A stretch of DNA of 63,191 nucleotides, counting the filler, from Globobulimina sp. (taxonomy: Eukaryota): the NCBI GenBank assembly GCA_003354225.1. It is 45 parts of 45 records of this genome, joined end to end, with 100 filler letters (N's around TTAATTAATTAA, not from the genome) between each part and the next. Parts side by side here need not be neighbours in the genome. Positions count along the whole stretch, not along the records: positions 30,958 to 32,263 come from PIVH01018997.1; 44 more parts are not named here. The stretch is one strand, 5' to 3'. The notes beneath the pieces were generated by a model, which saw only the letters and a program-made list of their open reading frames with translations, ran no database searches and was not told the DNA's origin. This document shows positions 30,625 through 54,447 of this stretch, piece by piece; positions within the stretch are counted from its first letter, which is position 1, and each line of letters starts with the position of its first letter. Both the position numbers and the translations under genes were made by a program.

Positions 30625-30780
30625 AGTACTGTACTATACTGTACTGTACTGTACTGTACTATATTGTACTGTACTGTACTGTACTGTACTGTATTGTACT
30701 CTACTGTACTGTACTGTTCTGTTAACTTTAGTGTACTGTACTCTACTGTTAATTGTACTGTTGAATGTATTATACTGTTT
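30625..30780. repeat. (TACTG)n pentanucleotide microsatellite, degenerating
   Basis: Directly visible. Confidence 0.95.
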
Positions 30781-31075
30781 AATGTTCGGTCGTGTCAGAA
30801 AAGGAGATAAGTGCGCGCAAAAAAATATTAAAGGCCGTGTCCTGTGATTAAGTAATANNNNNNNNNNNNNNNNNNNNNNNNNNNNNNNNNNNNNNNNNNN
30901 NTTAATTAATTAANNNNNNNNNNNNNNNNNNNNNNNNNNNNNNNNNNNNNNNNNNNNATAAGTGTTATCTCCATAAATTTTCAAACGCGGTGTTTCCAAA
31001 AGGTAGTATTCGATATTCTAAAGTACATAGAAAGGAAGAAACAAATAGAATGTGATATTGTGTAAACAAAATATA

Positions 31076-32263
31076 TTAATCCTTGATATTTTTTGTGTCC
31101 TTTTTAATAACATTATATTTATATTTTCCAAATTGAGGATCAACTCTTAAATTTTTTATTTCATCTTGCAACTGAGTCATAAATACTTGATTTGTATCAA
31201 ATTCTTTTACTTTTATTTGTAAATTCCGCATTACCATTTTCATAAACTCATCGATTTTTGCACCAACTCTAAACCCGCCAGACATCTTACAATATTTATC
31301 ATAATTGGTTTGTTGTAAATTGATAATAACTAATTTGCCTTTATTTTGTGTCCAACACATCAATGGAATATCACACGCCGGTTTCACCATTAATGATGAT
31401 CCAAATACAACACATAAATCTCCTTTGGAGCTTTGTTTGATCGCATTATTCAATTCCAACTCTGGCAATATTTCACCAAAATTTATAATCGAATCTCTTA
31501 ATTTTCCATTACAATCCAAGTCATTGCATAACCTCCCCGTAAATCTATGTTCACAACGCTTTGTGGTATCAAATGCGCGCAAATATTCCGCCCCACACTC
31601 TTCACAATGCTCCCTATAAATATTACCATGCAACTCTGACATCTCTGCCTTCTTTATTCCACTTCTACGATGTAACCCATCCACATTCGTTGACACTACA
31701 TAATGCAATAAATTATGCTTAAATAATTCCACAATGGCCATATGAGAGTATCTGCATTGTTTTAATGTACACAAATGTCAATTATCCATATATTTATATA
31801 CAAACATTACGTCGGTTTTGCCTGTTCCAATGTAATTGCGTGCTGAGGCTCCAATCCTTTGGCCCGCAATGTCCATACACCTTGCGGGCCTATACAGTAT
31901 GTATCAGAAACAATATACAAATATAAAAACGCTTTCATGAATGCAATGTTATACCTCTGTAATCTGGTAATTTTGCAGCGGTGCTGATACCGGCTCCAGT
32001 ATGAAAAACAGTATGTTTTGATTGTAATAACAAGTTTGTAAATTGCTGAGCAAATTGTTTCAATAAACTAGGCTCAGTATAAAGCTCTTTTACTTCCTCA
32101 GAATTGTCGTGTGTGGTATAATCAGTAACGCGAATTATATGTTTTACGATAGTCTCTGTTTCTTTTAATTTCTCTTTATCAAATTGTTTAATTCCACCAA
32201 ATATAGCACACATTTTCTTTTTTGTGTCTGATGGTTGCAAATCTAAAGTATCATTCTCTTTTG
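31076..32263 (-). CDS. Class IV sirtuin (SIRT6/7/SRT1-like) with N-terminal beta-thymosin-like motif; introns 31890-31954 and 31752-31810
   Basis: [35 protein letters not shown], ELHGN, CxxC..CxxxxC, DSIINFGE, GSSLMVKPA, IINLQ. Confidence 0.95.
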
Positions 32264-35175: not shown

Positions 35176-36481
35176 ATATTATTATTCACAAAGTACATTG
35201 TAATCAAGTCATGAAAGGGCGACTGATAAAAAAATGTGTCCCAATTCCGGTATTTTATCGCATCGTAATACTTTTTGATGCCTTCCTCGACGCTGATTCC
35301 TTCCTCTTTGGGATACTTAAACACAATCTTAGTCAGATTGGACTGTGCGTGACTATGCATGTGGCCGTCCATGAAACTCAGCAAACGCTTAAAAGTGTAA
35401 TCTGTCAAATACGGGCCATCTTTGATGATGATCTTGGTCACGTTTACAAATAAATTGCACAGCAAATCCAAATCAATCCACGAGTCGTCTTTGGTCATCA
35501 ACTGCTTCTTCAGCGAATAGTATCTATCGTTCATCTGATCGATGTCGATTTCGATCCATTTCATCTTTTTGCTGCAATAGTTACTGAATAAATTGTCGAC
35601 ATACTGCGGGATATTGCAATGTTGATGGTATTTCCGCTTTTTTTTGTTCATTTTTTTTACCTGATTCTGCATCAACATCACCATGGCTTTTTTGCCATAT
35701 TTCGAGGGAGAATCGTCGTCTTTGTCGCCGTGCAAGATATTGTTTAGATAGTTCATGCCGGAAATGTATTGATGGTAATTCTGAGAGTGCACAGCGTCTA
35801 AAATGGTCACTATACGCAAAGGACCAGTGCTGCTAAAGAATAATTTCTCATTTTCGTTGCAGAAATTTGAGATCCATTGACAGTCAAAGTACGTGGCGCT
35901 GGTATGATAGCGGGATAATTGTATGATTAATCCCTGCTGTTTCTCCATATTAATATTACACGAAACATACAAAGATTCGGTCATAGAAAGCGGTGAATAA
36001 ATGTTTAACAAACTATCTGTAAATAGATATTGCCCATACACGATATGATAAAACTTATCCGCAGAACGCAAGGATTGCCCATAAATCTCAGCACATTCTC
36101 GCAAATATTTGCTGAAATGCGCAAACTGCGAATGCCGCTGTATGATGGCATTGAAATCCTCCATATTTGCGGCAAAAAAGGACTGCGTAAACGCAGATTG
36201 AATGGCAGAATGATTGCAAAATAGCAGTAATACTAAGATATGATTCAGCGTTATCGGCGCTCGCTTATTGATATTGTATCTGCGAAGTAATTGGGTGTTG
36301 CCATAAAAACAGCTCGCTTTTAGCTTTCGCACTTTGTTGGTGGTCATCAAATCCTTTGTTTTTGCTAATAAATATTCAAAAGCTTTCTTGTTTAACTTAT
36401 TTTGATACAATTCCTGCTTCAAATCTTTATATTTATGCATGACGTACCAATCCGAAATAAATCCGCCATTCACAGTATCAA
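35176..36481 (-). CDS. Divergent ADP-ribosyltransferase-like domain protein, copy 1, partial
   Basis: KYKDLKQE, HILVLLLFCN, YLRECAEIYG, FYH, PLSMT, YFDCQWISNFCNENEKLF. Confidence 0.65.
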
Positions 36482-36581: not shown

Positions 36582-37887
36582 AATCAACAATTTTCCATAA
36601 TTTTTATGTGTTTTAACAATACGAATTGAATGTATTTGAATCTGTGCATATCCGCCACAAAATAACCTTTCATCCTCTTCGCCATAGCAACTGAATAAGG
36701 AACAATTAAAACACTTTAACTTATTCCCCATTGGCTGTGCTGATTGCATTAAATCTAAAACAATGCCATTATTCTCATTGCCAAACATCATTATTACAGA
36801 TAACTGGGGCGAGGTTGATATTGGACAGCTAATCATTGCACGGAACTTATTAAAGATTATCTGCGCTGATACTCCATAATAAAATGTCTTAATATCATTA
36901 TCTTCCATAGTGGTTCCATACAATTCCACTGTTTCTCTGAGCAATCTATTCCAATTCACATATTCTTGCAATTGTTGCTTTCCATTAACATCAATATTAA
37001 TGTTCCTGTGAGTTAGACACAGTGCCAATGACAGGTATTGATGGTCGGTATATAATACAATGGATATTATATGTTGCATATACAACATCTCATTATTATT
37101 TATACCATAATGACAGTTGCCATATCCATGCGAGTTACTGTGGAATGACTTAATTATTGATGAATGTGCCTGATATGCCATTGATTTACTGTACGTTTTA
37201 TCAAATTCATTGATTGAAATATTAAATATTTCATTTTCAAGAATCTCCTCTTTTAAATTGCTATATTTTTTGCAAATATATAAGTCTTTGTATTTGTGGC
37301 CTATATTCCAAATTACGTCTTCATTCTCATTATGTTTATACCAATCCCAATAATAATATCTCGAACCAAAACAATATTCATATTTGAAATTATATTCATT
37401 GTTGTTATTATCAATGGATATGTCAGCAAAGAATTTATTATGTTGGTTTATTGATAGTCCTCTCATTGTTTTAAATGTATCGCGTTTGTTAATCAATGAT
37501 TGTTTTAAATATTTTAATTCTTTATCATCATATAATAATATTCCATCATCTATGACATCTAAATCTTGCTTTTCTTCGTCTTTTTCTTCATTGCTTATTG
37601 ATTTCGATAGTTTCGATAAAGAGTCCATTTCTTCATTTTCTTCGTCATCATCAAATAGATTTATTCGCAAACCTAAATCTAATGAATGCATAAAATAACA
37701 ATGTATCACATCCAATAGTTCCACATAAAAATCTAATAATTTGCTGTGATTCTTGTGTTTTTTAATGATAGTCCTTGTGTATTGTTTGCATGTTTTAACA
37801 TCACACTGTATGTGCTTTGATAATTTGCTGTAGATAAATAAAAAGTTTTCACTGTTTAGTAATTGTTTTTTATTTAAATGTTTTGAT
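36582..37887 (-). CDS. Divergent ADP-ribosyltransferase-like domain protein, copy 2, partial
   Basis: KYSNLKEE, HIISIVLYTD, LLRETVELYG, FYYG, PISTS, FNCSLFSCYGEEDERLFCGG. Confidence 0.7.
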
Positions 37888-47864: not shown

Positions 47865-49062
47865 ATGCGCACAACAGAGAGTGTTTTGAAAATCCAAAAG
47901 GGCATCGTTGACAAATACAATGAGAACGATGTGTATAATTCATCGGCAATGAGTCTGATGGATGTTGATGGCATGTCCTCTGCGATCAGTCAAATGGATA
48001 CCAATGATACGCTGCGGCATCATCCTGATAATGACACCATGGTAATTCTTGAAAATGTTGAAATTGAAATGGGCTCAAGGAAAAATACAGCATTATATAT
48101 GAATGATATGAACCAACTCTTGGCAAACTATAAAGACACTTTCCATTCACTCACCAAGTTACGAAAACACTCACCAATTGATACGGACACTGAGCCTGAC
48201 ACTGACATACAACCAACACATAAATCACGTTTATGCCGTGGCACCGGCACATCCGTTCTATTATGGATATTACTCACTTATTCTGTATTATGTAGCACAT
48301 ATTTTTTATTCTGTGTTTTTTTTCGATCCAAAAACCTGCCCTTTTTACCAGATTCGGAGCAAAGTATGAATGCACTCGCACCGATATTTATTCCTACAGC
48401 GTCTCCAACCATTGCCATAGAAAAGTTAGTCACTTATTACATTGTTAATATATATACTTTGTGACAATTATAACAAACCATGCAGAGTTGAAATGGTATC
48501 AACGGAGCCAACATTAGAGCCAACATTGGAACCTACAAAGGCACCGCTAATAGTTGATAGATATTTTGTTGGTGATTACAAGGTCTCTGCACAGCTGCAA
48601 TCGCACGGAAACTGGTTATTATGTGATGGCACATTGTATAATGTCTCAGATTATGAAGAATTATTTGGAGTTATTGGCTATGTATTCACCGCAAAGCTTA
48701 ATGATGTATCGATATATGATGAGACTTTGTTTGCTGTTCCAGATTCGAGGGGTAAAGTGATTGGAATTTATGATGCTACAAAGCATTTATTTGGAGATGT
48801 TATTGGTGCGGATTGGATTAACTTGACACGGAGTAATCTACCATCACAATCTCATTATTTATTAAAGCACTTAAATGTGGATTTGGAGAGCATAGATTCA
48901 AACAATATGAGTAGGAATGTAAGCAATGTAACGTTAGATCATGGCACTGAATATATTGTATATGGAGGAATTGATGAGGAAACAAATGGAGTTAAATCCA
49001 GTCGGCCATTTTCCTCTTATCAACCAACCATATTTATGGGGAATGCCTTCGTTTATTCATGA
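47865..49062 (+). CDS. Single-pass membrane protein with C-terminal phage tail-collar domain; intron 48425-48485
   Basis: TM, then PT-rich stalk, then VGDYK.S..HGNWLLCDG..Y.ELF.VIG..F..F.VPD.RG, LT..NLP, QPT. Confidence 0.88.
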
Positions 49063-53453: not shown

Positions 53454-54447
53454 TGCGTCCAAATCCATGGATAAGGCGGTAAATTATATGGCGTATTTGC
53501 ATCGCTTTGATGATGATGAAATAGAGCAAGAAAGCGACGATTTTGCTGACAACAATGATTTTGATAAAATAATAAAAAGCTATAATCAGGGAAATAAAAA
53601 GAATTTTGGTACAGAGAGACACGAAAAGAGCCTGAAAGCAATAAACTCGATTTTAGAATTAGACGAAGTGGAACCGCTTATAATGTCATTCAAAGAAGGA
53701 AAGGCAAATAACAGTGATAAATCCAACTACGTTCTATTACGAAATGGAATTGATATTTTAAAGCAGGGATTGTATCTTTGCTACAATTCATTATTCATTT
53801 TAGGTATCAGAGAGATAACGATGAACATAAGAGATATTACAGTGATATTAAAATCAGGCAAACCAGCAAAATATATGGATAGCTACAGACCCGTTTCCTT
53901 GCAGTCGAGCTGTAGTAATCCGTACGATAAATGGATGGCGGCTAAATATTTAAAGTATGGGATTGAAATGAAAATAATTAAAGAGAGACACTTTGGATTT
54001 GTGAAAGGATTAGGTTGTGTTGACGCGATTGGATACATTGTAGAGCAGATTTGGAATAATAGAGTTATTAAGAAAGATACGCATATATTATTTATAGATT
54101 TTAAAGCAGCATTTGACACAATTCAACATAAAATAATATTAGAATGCATTAGTATTAATATAGGTATCAAAGGATTTGCGTTTGAATATTTATTTGTTGC
54201 ATTAGAATTTAGATGGGGCAGAGTCAAAATATATGGATATTATTGTACGTGGAGACAGGATATTTGTGGTGTACCACAAGGATGGCCCCCTTCGTCGATA
54301 TTATTCATATTCTTTACAATTGAATTTGATGCATTGAATGGACTTAAAATTGGTTTAGTTATCGTAGGATATGCCGACGATAATACTGTGTTTTCGGATG
54401 GATCAGTCAACGGAGAGGAGCTGAGACGAAACATTCAATATGATTGA
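53454..54447 (+). mobile_element. Non-LTR (LINE-like) reverse transcriptase, truncated just after YADD
   Basis: SYRPVSL, HFGF, FIDFKAAFD, GVPQG..S.ILF, YADD. Confidence 0.92.

What the first reader, a model, noticed from the sequence alone, without database searches (positions are those of the whole stretch)
31076..32263. Beta-thymosin/WH2 actin-binding motif fused to a class IV sirtuin
Seen: [14 protein letters not shown] (32151-32192) sits in the same exon and frame as the sirtuin GAGIST motif. Knowledge: thymosin beta-4 has IEKFDKSKLKKTET as its G-actin-binding core, and SIRT6/7 normally lack it. Inference: an NAD+-dependent deacylase tethered to or regulated by monomeric actin.
Basis: partly seen in the sequence, partly recalled or inferred. 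Interest (0 to 1): 0.7.

Follow-up and report, generated by a model that had tools for sequence, protein, structure and literature searches.

The report
Sirtuin carrying an actin-binding motif
A SIRT6-like enzyme of a foraminifer-like protist carries at its front end a short conserved peptide that closely resembles the actin-gripping core of thymosin beta-4, and the same add-on recurs in dozens of amoeboid protists, which points to an undescribed link between this enzyme family and unpolymerised actin.

Summary
[14 protein letters not shown] (32151-32192, minus strand) lies in one open exon with GAGIST of a three-exon SIRT6-like gene. Public contigs carry both introns spliced out. The window is a chain of 45 unrelated ~1.3-kb contigs, and the contig end cuts off about 7 N-terminal residues.

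On the window alone the match is weak (Pfam Thymosin 18-20 bits, cut-off 24.8). The family evidence is stronger:
- 51 of 129 class IV sirtuin homologues with a long enough N-terminus carry the same motif 62-84 residues before GAGIS. They come from Foraminifera, Amoebozoa, Heterolobosea and an apusomonad.
- A profile of the motif finds thymosin beta-9 and beta-4 in the PDB at E 1e-7 to 3e-4.
- 13 relatives add a C-terminal PPP-WH2 (N-WASP, E 1e-8).
- 35 relatives add a CAP-type CARP domain (fold Z 18-19 to CAP1).

Best reading: a G-actin-binding module tethers the deacylase to monomeric actin (P about 0.75). Actin is more likely the substrate than only a regulator. Binding is untested, because the complex predictor was unavailable. 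Seven full-text searches found no paper on this architecture. I rate it a new variant of known kinds, interest about 0.68.

The parts
30958..32263 (.). The 1306-bp contig that holds the gene. It is flanked by 100-base linkers (44 N + TTAATTAATTAA + 44 N), so neighbouring contigs in the window are not genomic neighbours.
31955..32263 (-). Exon 1, 5'-incomplete (first full codon at 32261). It encodes the N-terminal extension with the motif, the SIRT6-like N-terminal helix and GAGIST...DYRG. The donor is AGAG|GTATAAC.
   Evidence: joint 31888>31954 in contigs of runs X1, X3 and X6
32211..32213 (-). The only in-frame ATG upstream of the motif on this contig (KKKM). The Nonionella orthologue has a Met at the same place and starts 23 residues further upstream.
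32139..32207 (-). WH2/beta-thymosin-like module [23 protein letters not shown]: an amphipathic helix part followed by LKETET.
   Evidence: Pfam Thymosin E 5.2e-4 to 0.0019, below cut-off; family profile against PDB thymosins, E 1e-7; conservation of F, K, L, T, T
32151..32192 (-). 10 of 14 residues are identical to thymosin beta-4.
32016..32099 (-). Start of the catalytic domain: a helix that corresponds to SIRT6 residues ~22-50 ([10 protein letters not shown]...LLLQSK).
31980..31997 (-). GAGIST NAD-binding motif.
31890..31954 (-). Intron 1, 65 nt, GT..AG.
   Evidence: skipped in contigs of runs X1, X3 and X6, retained in X2 record 7
31811..31889 (-). Exon 2 (GPQGVWTLRAKGLEPQHAITLEQAKPT). It holds the GVWTL motif typical of class IV.
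   Evidence: the GVWTL statement is from PMC7376869 section 14
31752..31810 (-). Intron 2, 59 nt, GT..AG.
   Evidence: skipped in contigs of runs X1 and X3
31076..31751 (-). Exon 3 up to and including the stop codon. It holds STNVDGLH (31670-31693), the catalytic LHGN (31622-31633), zinc cysteines CEEC (31595-31606) and CNDLDC (31511-31528), GSSL, NLQ, and a conserved C-terminal block LRVDPQFGKYKYNV (31109-31150). It has no C-terminal WH2.
   Evidence: Pfam SIR2 5.6e-20

Best explanation
The gene encodes a SIRT6-type (class IV) NAD+-dependent deacylase of a foraminifer-like protist. Its N-terminal extension carries a working WH2/beta-thymosin-type G-actin-binding module.

By analogy with solved WH2 and thymosin complexes, the amphipathic helix (A-I-F-G-G-I-K-Q-F) would sit in the hydrophobic cleft at the barbed face of an actin monomer, and LKETET would run along the actin surface. 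A short flexible linker of about 18 residues then leads into the catalytic domain. That domain would be held against the monomer, towards subdomains 2 and 4.

I think the tether most likely presents actin itself as the substrate: removal of acyl groups from actin lysines, or possibly mono-ADP-ribosylation, which SIRT6-type enzymes also perform. In relatives the same enzyme is built into a fuller clamp that resembles CAP, with the WH2-type motif plus a CARP domain, or with two WH2-type motifs flanking the catalytic domain.

Shown: the gene model, the class IV identity, conservation of the motif at a fixed position, its profile similarity to thymosins, and its co-occurrence with WH2 and CARP. 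Inferred: actin binding (my estimate about 0.75), the geometry, and actin being the substrate.
For: 1. Gene and transcript. The gene has three exons with GT..AG introns. The spliced product of 353 residues aligns without gaps to the Nonionella stella protein P0002 at 73.5% identity (258 of 351). Contigs of 3 of 4 laid runs skip exactly the predicted introns, and one contig (X3 record 12) joins the motif exon to exons 2 and 3.

2. Conservation.
- 51 of 251 non-redundant homologues carry the motif; 129 of these have at least 69 residues before GAGIS.
- The distance from the conserved Phe to GAGIS ranges from 62 to 84, median 68, in 48 of them.
- In the whole-protein alignment A2 (32 rows) the low-entropy columns of the extension are F (0.87), K (0.80), L (0.84), T (0.77) and T (0.90), inside flanks of 2.3-3.4 bits.

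3. Named carriers span four deep lineages (lineages for five species, the others from recall):
- Foraminifera: Nonionella.
- Amoebozoa: Balamuthia (two paralogues), Pelomyxa (two), Mastigella, Pellita, Luapeleamoeba, Flabellula, Cochliopodium.
- Heterolobosea: Naegleria lovaniensis, N. fowleri, Willaertia.
- Apusomonadida: Thecamonas.

4. Likeness to actin binders. A profile of 35 motif segments (A1) searched against 177,635 PDB sequences gave 8 hits at E up to 10, and 7 of them are beta-thymosin or WH2 chains: thymosin beta-9 at 1e-7; beta-4 chimeras at 3.6e-7, 8.1e-6, 1.3e-5 and 3.4e-4; ciboulot at 0.096; N-WASP at 0.75. The alignments have no gaps. Pfam Thymosin passes its cut-off in homologue P0039 (25.6 bits) and gives sub-threshold hits at the motif in 6 more of the 61 homologues scanned.

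5. Independent actin modules on the same enzyme clade.
- A C-terminal 'DDGPPP-VLxxIxxG-LRxV' motif occurs in 13 of 251. Its 8-sequence profile hits N-WASP at 1.2e-8 and 4.8e-4, then INF2, WAVE2 and WASP; 5 of 6 hits are WH2.
- hhalign of the two motif profiles gives probability 74%, E 2.7e-5.
- Pfam CAP_C passes its cut-off in 16 proteins. A family CARP model finds 35 of 251, of which 21 also carry the motif.
- In the model of P0115 the domain at 358-494 superposes on CAP C-terminal domains: 1k8f Z 18.9, rmsd 2.6 A over 133 residues; 2b0r Z 18.6; 1k4z Z 18.1. TBCC and RP2 score only Z 10.4-13.1.

6. The motif is not part of the sirtuin fold. SIRT6 superposes on model residues 55-326 only. The linker after the motif has pLDDT under 50 in P0002 (residues 45-56). 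The whole motif region has pLDDT under 50 in P0115 (residues 1-5 and 14-44).

7. Context from papers (passages read). WH2 and thymosin modules are defined as a short helix at the barbed face plus LKK(T/V) (PMC7407642; PMC11589041). Actin is acetylated at K50, K61 and K328. A complex of CAP and acetyl-actin inhibits INF2. The deacetylase is unsettled, with HDAC6 only a candidate (PMC7555357; PMC11589041).
Against: - No binding or complex test was possible.
- On the window's own sequence both Pfam scores are below the Thymosin cut-off, and Pfam WH2 gives no hit at E up to 10.
- The single-sequence PDB hits are not significant (E 0.25 and 0.52).
- The second basic residue of LKKT is Glu here and mostly Pro in the family.
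- The second, C-terminal helix that defines true beta-thymosins is not matched.
- The segments in A1 were picked with a regular expression modelled on the thymosin core, so the PDB E-values partly reflect that choice. The regex-free alignment A2 shows the same consensus.
- The closest sister group of the window/Nonionella pair (P0004, six cluster members) has a different N-terminus without the motif.
- 14 CARP-bearing proteins lack a detectable motif; two of these (P0077, P0142) have too short an N-terminus to judge.
- Some motif carriers also have a YEATS domain, a histone acyl-lysine reader (P0058). The one studied amoebozoan class IV sirtuin, AcSir2, is nuclear (PMC7376869), though it probably lacks the motif. 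Both facts fit a chromatin enzyme merely regulated by actin as well as they fit an actin-directed one.
- In the P0002 model the helix at 14-32 has pLDDT 67-80, and I could not inspect whether it packs on the core.
Confidence: 0.45

Rival explanations
1. The motif binds G-actin, but actin is a regulator and not the substrate. The enzyme would be a chromatin or nuclear deacylase whose import, retention or activity is gated by the pool of free actin. Known precedents are the RPEL proteins MRTF and Phactr, and the WH2-bearing JMY, in which bound actin masks a neighbouring basic import signal (recalled knowledge).
For: - Class IV sirtuins are chromatin enzymes in animals. AcSir2 of Acanthamoeba localises to the nucleus (PMC7376869).
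- Motif carrier P0058 also has a C-terminal YEATS domain.
- A basic patch (TKKK / RKK / KQK) sits directly before the motif in the foraminifer-like clade.
- All evidence for actin binding listed under the best explanation applies here too.
Against: - A CARP domain that superposes best on CAP, plus a second WH2 preceded by PPP, is the equipment of proteins that handle actin monomers, not of actin sensors.
- Paralogues swap the motif for a zf-UBP domain (38 of the 120 listed). That is the accessory domain of HDAC6, which the passages read describe as cytosolic and acting on cytoskeletal substrates; that HDAC6 carries a zf-UBP domain is recalled.
- The window protein and P0002 lack six residues of the SIRT6 zinc-module loop. 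From memory, that loop carries the arginine that anchors SIRT6 to the nucleosome acidic patch. SIRT7 also has a short loop, so this point is weak.
Confidence: 0.3
2. The motif is a conserved short linear motif or helix with a job unrelated to actin. It might be a docking site for another partner, an export-signal-like amphipathic helix, or an intramolecular element that regulates the catalytic domain. On this view the likeness to thymosin is convergent.
For: - WH2-like patterns are short and degenerate.
- The Pfam scores are sub-threshold in the window and in most homologues: 1 of 61 passes the Thymosin cut-off.
- LKKT is altered to LK[E/P]T.
- There is no thymosin C-terminal helix.
- The helix at 14-32 of the P0002 model is fairly confident and could pack on the core.
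Against: - The conserved positions are the same ones that align, without gaps, to the thymosin core. At E below 1 the profile finds thymosin, WH2 and ciboulot chains and nothing else among 177,635 PDB sequences.
- The same enzymes repeatedly carry two other actin-monomer modules, which convergence would not explain.
- The region is predicted disordered in P0115 and is separated from the core by a disordered linker in P0002.
Confidence: 0.2
3. Chance resemblance or an assembly or annotation artefact: the motif is not translated, or it is a random K/E-rich stretch of an AT-rich genome.
For: - The window has 34% G+C, and K/E-rich peptides are common in such genomes.
- The contig is tiny and 5'-truncated.
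Against: - The motif is conserved in 51 homologues at a fixed distance from GAGIS.
- Spliced contigs contain the motif exon.
- The orthologue comes from a transcriptome-derived protein set and starts upstream of the motif.
- The shuffle expectation is 0.05 per window.
Confidence: 0.03

Closest known systems
Thymosin beta-4 / beta-9 (Pfam PF01290; PDB 4pl7, 4pl8, 1hj0)
   Same: The helix, linker and LKKTET core match: 10 of 14 residues are identical in the window, and the family profile matches at E 1e-7 without gaps. As in thymosin, the motif sits at or near the N-terminus in many members: the conserved Phe lies within the first 20 residues in 19 of 48.
   Different: It is not a free 43-residue peptide but the leader of a ~350-residue enzyme. 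No second C-terminal helix is matched. The motif reads LKETET / LKPTET in place of LKKTET. It is below the Pfam cut-off in the window. It occurs in protists, whereas true beta-thymosins are known mainly from animals (recalled).
WH2 domains of N-WASP, WAVE, WASP and INF2 (Pfam PF02205; PDB 3m3n, 2vcp, 2a40, 2a3z, 9g7t)
   Same: The plan is the same: a short amphipathic helix followed by an LKK(T/V)-like element (passages in PMC7407642 and PMC11589041). The C-terminal motif of amoebozoan relatives is a canonical PPP-WH2.
   Different: The window protein has only the N-terminal, thymosin-flavoured copy. Pfam WH2 does not hit it. Known WH2 proteins are actin assembly factors, not NAD+-dependent enzymes.
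Cyclase-associated protein CAP/Srv2 (WH2 + CARP; PDB 1k8f, 1k4z, 2b0r)
   Same: 35 of 251 relatives carry a CARP domain, whose model superposes best on CAP (Z 18-19). In the C-terminal-CARP forms the order is WH2-type motif ... CARP, as in CAP, with the sirtuin domain in between. Mammalian CAP forms a complex with lysine-acetylated actin (PMC7555357).
   Different: The window protein has no CARP domain. No helical-folded or oligomerisation domain of CAP was seen. In most fusions the CARP domain lies N-terminal to the motif (28 of 35), which is the reverse of CAP.
Human SIRT6 (and SIRT7), class IV sirtuins
   Same: The catalytic domain matches: phmmer 1.9e-57 to SIRT6 and 1.7e-45 to SIRT7, and fold Z 31.1 to SIRT6. 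GAGIS, GVWTL, NVDGLH, HG and four zinc cysteines are all present.
   Different: There is an N-terminal extension of about 50 residues with the actin-type motif, which is absent from solved SIRT6 and SIRT7 chains. The SIRT6 zinc-module loop is six residues shorter. The long basic C-terminal tail of SIRT6 is missing.
HDAC6 (cytoskeletal lysine deacetylase with a zf-UBP domain)
   Same: HDAC6 is a deacylase directed at cytoskeletal substrates by accessory domains, and it is a candidate actin deacetylase in the CAP/acetyl-actin/INF2 pathway. 38 of the 120 listed class IV sirtuin homologues carry a zf-UBP domain in the place where the window protein has the motif.
   Different: HDAC6 is a zinc hydrolase, not an NAD+-dependent enzyme, and it has no WH2. 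The parallel is one of architecture only.
AcSir2 of Acanthamoeba castellanii (the only studied amoebozoan class IV sirtuin found in the searches)
   Same: It is a class IV sirtuin of an amoeboid protist with an accessory domain (YEATS), like relatives P0058 and P0140.
   Different: Its SIR2 core starts at residue 24. That leaves no room for a motif 62-84 residues before GAGIS, so it probably lacks the motif. It is nuclear. Its sequence could not be examined here.

Membership tests
Class IV sirtuin (SIRT6/SIRT7 type) | Sir2 catalytic domain (Pfam PF02146) above the curated cut-off | tested here: met
   Exon 3 translation: E 5.6e-20, 72.5 bits, cut-off 24.
Class IV sirtuin (SIRT6/SIRT7 type) | NAD-binding GAGIS, catalytic His in HG, NVDGLH, two cysteine pairs for zinc, and the class IV GVWTL motif | tested here: met
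   GAGIST 31980-31997, LHGN 31622-31633, STNVDGLH 31670-31693, CEEC and CNDLDC. GPQGVWTL is in exon 2. GVWTL is named as a class IV motif in PMC7376869 section 14.
Class IV sirtuin (SIRT6/SIRT7 type) | Closest solved relatives are SIRT6 and SIRT7, by sequence and by fold | tested here: met
   Tested on orthologue P0002 (73.5% identical). SIRT6 scores 1.9e-57 and SIRT7 1.7e-45, ahead of Sir2Tm at 1e-32. The model superposes on SIRT6 with Z 31.1, rmsd 2.6 A over 259 residues.
Class IV sirtuin (SIRT6/SIRT7 type) | NAD+-dependent deacylase or ADP-ribosyltransferase activity | not testable with these tools
   This needs an enzyme assay.
Beta-thymosin (Pfam PF01290) | Pfam model above the gathering score | tested here: not met
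   The window scores 18.3 and 20.2 bits against a cut-off of 24.8. Among 61 homologues scanned, 1 passes (P0039, 25.6 bits) and 6 give sub-threshold hits at the motif.
Beta-thymosin (Pfam PF01290) | N-terminal helix, conserved linker and LKKTET-type element | tested here: met
   The family profile aligns without gaps to thymosin beta-9 and beta-4 (E 1e-7 to 3.4e-4). The window core is 10 of 14 identical to beta-4. Caveat: the profile rows were chosen with a thymosin-like regular expression. The regex-free alignment A2 gives the same consensus.
Beta-thymosin (Pfam PF01290) | Second, C-terminal helix that binds the pointed face of actin (definition from PMC7407642) | tested here: not met
   The profile matches to the thymosins end at profile position 27-28, and no match covers their C-terminal half. 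The region after the motif is predicted disordered. It should therefore not be filed as a true beta-thymosin.
WH2 domain (Pfam PF02205) | Pfam model above the gathering score | tested here: not met
   The window gives no WH2 hit at E up to 10. At the N-terminal motif of relatives there is only P0089 (E 0.0078). At the C-terminal motif there are P0018 (21.1 bits, cut-off 23.1) and P0016.
WH2 domain (Pfam PF02205) | Short amphipathic helix followed by an LKK(T/V)-like element, 17-20 residues (PMC11589041) | tested here: met
   The window has hydrophobic residues F-x2-I-x2-F, then L-K-E-T after five residues. These positions are conserved in the family. hhalign to the relatives' canonical C-terminal WH2 profile gives probability 74%, E 2.7e-5.
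WH2 domain (Pfam PF02205) | Binds monomeric actin | not testable with these tools
   The complex predictor was not available. No experiment was possible.
CAP-type CARP domain (Pfam PF08603): a feature of relatives, considered for the window | CARP beta-helix domain present | tested here: not met
   The window protein ends 31 residues after the conserved LRVDP block and has no such domain. In relatives it is present: Pfam above cut-off in 16 proteins, and fold Z 18.1-18.9 to CAP against 10.4-13.1 to TBCC and RP2.

The most novel reading that the evidence does not exclude
An ancient family of actin-dedicated sirtuins, possibly as old as the last eukaryotic common ancestor. In it a SIRT6-type catalytic domain is built into a G-actin clamp that resembles CAP: a thymosin/WH2 motif, with or without a CARP domain and a second PPP-WH2. 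The enzyme would erase acyl marks on monomeric actin, or ADP-ribosylate it. That would make it the missing NAD+-dependent eraser of the actin code in amoeboid eukaryotes, coupling actin dynamics to NAD+ metabolism.
Probability: 0.3. Interest if true: 0.85.

Novelty: new variant of a known kind. Interest (0 to 1): 0.68.

Why it matters
- Which enzyme deacetylates actin is unsettled. [quoted passage not shown]
- A sirtuin family that carries up to three different actin-monomer modules gives a concrete candidate that can be expressed and assayed.
- It is also a natural experiment on how a deacylase is aimed at actin.
- If instead actin gates a chromatin sirtuin, this would be a new route from the free-actin pool to chromatin, alongside MRTF-type sensors.
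- Thymosin-flavoured motifs in Rhizaria, Amoebozoa, Heterolobosea and an apusomonad push this module well outside animals.
- Seven full-text searches found no paper that describes a sirtuin with a WH2, thymosin or CARP module. A large survey of chromatin-enzyme evolution does not mention one in its main text.

Tried and rejected
The fetched actin went unused.
- No whole genome is held for this window.
With A3 it scored only the 7,996 candidates sharing most words and returned 14 sirtuins already known. This says nothing about other proteins with this motif.
- phmmer of the CARP part of P0082 against the PDB gave 0 hits at E up to 1. The relation to CAP shows only with Pfam profiles and the fold search.
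- The protein-atlas search on residues 10-50 gave best scores of 0.75-0.79, below the level the tool calls a lead.
- The scan's earlier findings hold nothing on this genome or sequence. The word search returned only unrelated Asgard WH2-like microproteins.
- No actin gene was found among 100 ORFs of the window at Pfam E up to 1e-4.
- The look-up of sequencing runs listed no RNA holder. The run kinds are unknown, so the spliced contigs are read as transcript-derived only because they lack both GT..AG introns, while another run of the same sample keeps them.
- The idea that AcSir2 is a studied motif carrier was dropped, because its SIR2 core starts at residue 24.
- Trees do not make the motif carriers one clade. 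In the FastTree of 119 rows the label needs at least 9 changes on starred branches. I therefore make no claim about a single origin, or about gain versus loss.
Full report
**What the window is**

The 63,191-base window is not one stretch of genome. It is 45 contigs of 1305-1308 bases, sorted by length. They are joined by 100-base linkers of 44 N, TTAATTAATTAA and 44 N. G+C is 34%.

The finding lies on contig 30958-32263. Neighbouring contigs say nothing about its genomic context. No whole genome is held for the window.

**The observation**

The minus-strand translation of 31953-32261 is stop-free for 103 residues (P0001). It reads ...[93 protein letters not shown].

- The motif core maps to 32151-32192 and GAGIST to 31980-31997.
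- The core is identical to thymosin beta-4 at 10 of 14 positions, as aligned to PDB chain 4pl8_H.
- Pfam Thymosin is the only family that hits this exon. It stays below its cut-off: 18.3 and 20.2 bits against 24.8.
- The single-sequence PDB hits to thymosin beta-9 and beta-4 are the top hits but are not significant (E 0.25 and 0.52).
- A loose pattern for the motif occurs once, intact, in the six-frame translation of the window. In 200 shuffles it occurs 0.05 times per window on average.

Taken alone, it is only suggestive.

**Gene model and expression**

The gene has three exons on the minus strand:
- Exon 1: from at least 32261 down to 31955.
- Intron 1: 31954-31890, 65 nt.
- Exon 2: 31889-31811.
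- Intron 2: 31810-31752, 59 nt.
- Exon 3: 31751-31076, including the stop codon.

Both introns are GT..AG. The spliced product has 353 residues. It aligns without a single gap to protein P0002 at 73.5% identity (258 of 351). P0002 starts 7 residues before the contig end.

Logan contigs from four public runs were laid on the contig.
- Contigs in X1 and X3 skip exactly 31752-31810.
- Contigs in X1, X3 and X6 skip the 65-base intron.
- A contig of X2 runs through the intron sequence.
- One spliced contig (X3 record 12) covers 31658-32263. It joins the motif exon to exons 2 and 3.
- Contigs run 48, 53 and 167 bases beyond 32263.

The run kinds are not on record. I read the joined forms as transcript-derived because exactly the GT..AG introns are missing.

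The only Met codon between the contig end and the catalytic domain (32211-32213) lies upstream of the motif. Any plausible start therefore includes the motif.

**The enzyme**

- Exon 3 matches Pfam Sir2 at 5.6e-20.
- [19 protein letters not shown], LHGN and two cysteine pairs are all in place.
- The orthologue's best solved relatives are human SIRT6 (1.9e-57) and SIRT7 (1.7e-45).
- Its AlphaFold model (mean pLDDT 85) superposes on SIRT6 with Z 31.1, rmsd 2.6 A over 259 residues, spanning model residues 55-326.

This is a class IV sirtuin. The first ~50 residues lie outside the SIRT6 fold. Compared with SIRT6, a loop of the zinc module is six residues shorter.

**Whose gene it is**

P0002 comes from the EukProt set of Nonionella stella, a rotaliid foraminifer. 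In a 42-row IQ-TREE the window protein pairs with it (SH-aLRT 90). The identity is 77% over 274 columns. The pair sits inside a starred group of three with P0004. The window therefore most likely comes from a foraminifer or a close relative.

**The motif is a family trait**

I gathered 251 non-redundant class IV sirtuin homologues from three searches:
- Exon 1 against longer proteins.
- P0002 against proteins of similar length, with 1453 hits at E up to 1e-20 and 120 listed.
- A 32-row profile against 1.84 billion representatives, with 1978 hits at E up to 1e-30 and 150 listed.

Of the 251, 247 have a GAGIS-type motif and 129 have at least 69 residues before it. Of these 129, 51 carry the motif by a local HMM.

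- The distance from the conserved Phe to GAGIS is 62-84, median 68, in 48 of them.
- The Phe lies within the first 20 residues in 19, at 21-60 in 11, and deeper in 18.
- In a whole-protein alignment made without reference to the motif (A2) the consensus of the extension is LxxIxxFxKxxLKPTxTxV.
- The conserved columns are F 0.87, K 0.80, L 0.84, T 0.77 and T 0.90. They stand among columns of 2.3-3.4 bits entropy.

Named carriers:
- Foraminifera: Nonionella stella.
- Amoebozoa: Balamuthia mandrillaris (two paralogues), Pelomyxa schiedti (two), Mastigella eilhardi, Pellita catalonica, Luapeleamoeba hula, Flabellula baltica and Cochliopodium minus. Clastostelium recurvatum has a degenerate copy.
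- Heterolobosea: Naegleria lovaniensis, N. fowleri and Willaertia magna.
- Apusomonadida: Thecamonas trahens.

Lineages were checked for five of these. The others are from recall.

The fungal and nematode homologues in the lists have short N-termini and no motif. Motif carriers do not form one clade in the trees. They are mixed with forms that carry a zf-UBP domain instead (38 of 120).

**Is it a thymosin/WH2-type actin-binding module?**

A profile of 35 motif segments (A1) was searched against 177,635 distinct PDB sequences. It gave 8 hits at E up to 10:
- Thymosin beta-9: 1e-7.
- Four thymosin beta-4 constructs: 3.6e-7, 8.1e-6, 1.3e-5 and 3.4e-4.
- Ciboulot: 0.096.
- N-WASP: 0.75.
- One unrelated protein: E 2.

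The alignments are gap-free over about 20 residues. No solved SIRT6 or SIRT7 chain appears.

A caveat applies. The segments were chosen with a regular expression modelled on the thymosin core, which favours this result. The regex-free consensus of A2 is the same.

Pfam Thymosin passes its cut-off in one homologue (P0039, 25.6 bits). It gives sub-threshold hits at the motif in six more of the 61 scanned.

The published definition (PMC7407642, passage) says actin-binding modules have a 9-10-residue helix at the barbed face, followed by LKK(T/V). It adds that beta-thymosins also have a second C-terminal helix for the pointed face. The sirtuin motif has the first part only. I therefore call it thymosin-flavoured WH2-type and do not file it as a beta-thymosin.

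**Other actin modules on the same enzymes**

Thirteen of the 251, mostly amoebozoan where named, end in '...SM-DDGPPP-x-VLxxIxxG-x-LRxV'.
- A profile of eight such segments hits N-WASP at 1.2e-8 and 4.8e-4, then INF2, WAVE2 and WASP. Five of six hits are WH2 domains.
- hhalign relates this profile to the N-terminal one (probability 74%, E 2.7e-5).
- Seven proteins carry both motifs, one on each side of the catalytic domain.

Pfam CAP_C (the CARP domain of cyclase-associated protein) passes its cut-off in 16 proteins.
- A family model finds it in 35 of 251: 28 N-terminal and 7 C-terminal. Of these, 21 also carry the motif.
- In the model of the Flabellula protein P0115 (mean pLDDT 74.8), residues 358-494 form a beta-helix.
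- That beta-helix superposes on human CAP1 (Z 18.9, rmsd 2.6 A over 133 residues), Cryptosporidium CAP (Z 18.6) and yeast CAP (Z 18.1).
- TBCC and RP2 score clearly lower (Z 10.4-13.1).

The window protein itself has neither the C-terminal WH2 nor the CARP domain.

**Is the motif free to bind?**

- In the P0002 model, residues 14-32 form a helix (pLDDT 67-80).
- Residues 45-56 fall below pLDDT 50, before the confident core begins.
- In P0115, residues 1-5 and 14-44 are below 50.

This fits a tethered, largely disordered module. I could not inspect contacts, so packing of the helix on the core is not excluded.

**Mechanism**

Most likely the motif binds a G-actin monomer in the way of WH2 and thymosin. 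The helix would sit in the barbed-face cleft and LKETET would run along the surface (general mechanism from PMC11589041, passage). I put the probability of binding at about 0.75. The short linker, about 18 residues in the window protein, would keep the catalytic domain on the monomer. There are two readings of what follows.

- Actin as substrate (0.45).
  - The added WH2 and CARP modules are the equipment of proteins that handle actin monomers.
  - Mammalian CAP binds lysine-acetylated actin (K50, K61). The eraser of these marks is unsettled (passages in PMC7555357 and PMC11589041).
  - Sister forms carry the zf-UBP domain, which from memory is the accessory domain of HDAC6. The reviews read here discuss HDAC6 as a cytoskeletal deacetylase.
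- Actin as regulator of a chromatin enzyme (0.30).
  - YEATS fusions occur in relatives (P0058, P0140).
  - AcSir2 is nuclear.
  - A basic patch lies next to the motif.

A non-actin role for the motif keeps about 0.2. Chance or artefact keeps about 0.03.

**Novelty**

Seven full-text searches combined sirtuin or Sir2 with WH2, thymosin, CARP, G-actin, actin-binding motif or Naegleria. None returned a paper describing this architecture.

A broad survey of chromatin-enzyme evolution has 0 occurrences of thymosin, WH2, zf-UBP or CAP_C in its main text. Its supplements were not seen. The library lacks most subscription journals. Automatic domain databases may already display the CAP_C-SIR2 combination for entries such as the Thecamonas protein.

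I rate the finding a new variant of known kinds: a class IV sirtuin with actin-monomer modules.

**What could not be done**

An actin sequence had been fetched for that test.

Noticed in passing
window 1-63191: The window is a pseudomolecule of 45 contigs (1308 down to 1305 bp, sorted by length) joined by linkers of 44 N + TTAATTAATTAA + 44 N. Adjacency between contigs carries no biological meaning, and most genes are truncated at contig ends.
   Followed up: yes
relatives P0013, 14, 15, 16, 17, 18, 19, 22, 23, 32, 41, 46 and 172 (C-termini): A canonical WH2 preceded by a proline run (DDGPPP-VLxxIxxG-LRxV) lies at the C-terminus of 13 relatives, mostly amoebozoan where named. Its profile hits N-WASP at 1.2e-8. 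The proline run could be a profilin site. The window protein lacks it.
   Followed up: yes
relatives such as P0029 (Bolivina), P0051 (Leptophrys) and P0103 (Physarum); 38 of 120: Many protist class IV sirtuins carry an N-terminal zf-UBP domain (PF02148) where the window protein has the actin-type motif. This echoes the architecture of HDAC6. The tree mixes the two forms, which suggests repeated swapping of the N-terminal module.
   Followed up: partly
relatives P0058 and P0140: These class IV sirtuins have a C-terminal YEATS domain, like the published AcSir2. P0058 also has the N-terminal actin-type motif.
   Followed up: partly
relative P0158 (Balamuthia mandrillaris, KAL6055358.1): This motif-bearing Sir2-domain protein is named 'ditrans,polycis-polyprenyl diphosphate synthase' by its source, probably a mis-annotation. 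It sits on a very long branch in the tree.
   Followed up: no
window 32161: In run X6, whose contigs are 95-99% alike and so come from a related strain or species, T>G on the plus strand changes the motif's LKETET to LKATET. This is the family's most variable motif position.
   Followed up: partly
window 31511-31528 compared with SIRT6: The zinc-module loop is six residues shorter than in human SIRT6 (gap in the alignment). From memory, that SIRT6 loop holds the arginine anchor for the nucleosome acidic patch.
   Followed up: no
window 30626-30749: A (GTACT)n microsatellite of 24 copies on the preceding, unrelated contig. It produces long spurious ORFs in several frames.
   Followed up: yes
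window 48430-49059 (+): An ORF with a Phage Tail Collar domain (PF07484, E 4.5e-8) on a contig with 36% G+C. This is odd for a eukaryote. It may be bacterial or viral contamination, or a transferred gene.
   Followed up: no
window 53455-54444 (+): A reverse-transcriptase ORF (RVT_1, 4.2e-18): a retroelement fragment.
   Followed up: no
window 35178-36479 (-) and 36582-37886 (-): Two ORFs of 434 and 435 residues span whole contigs from end to end and have no Pfam match at E up to 1e-4.
   Followed up: no
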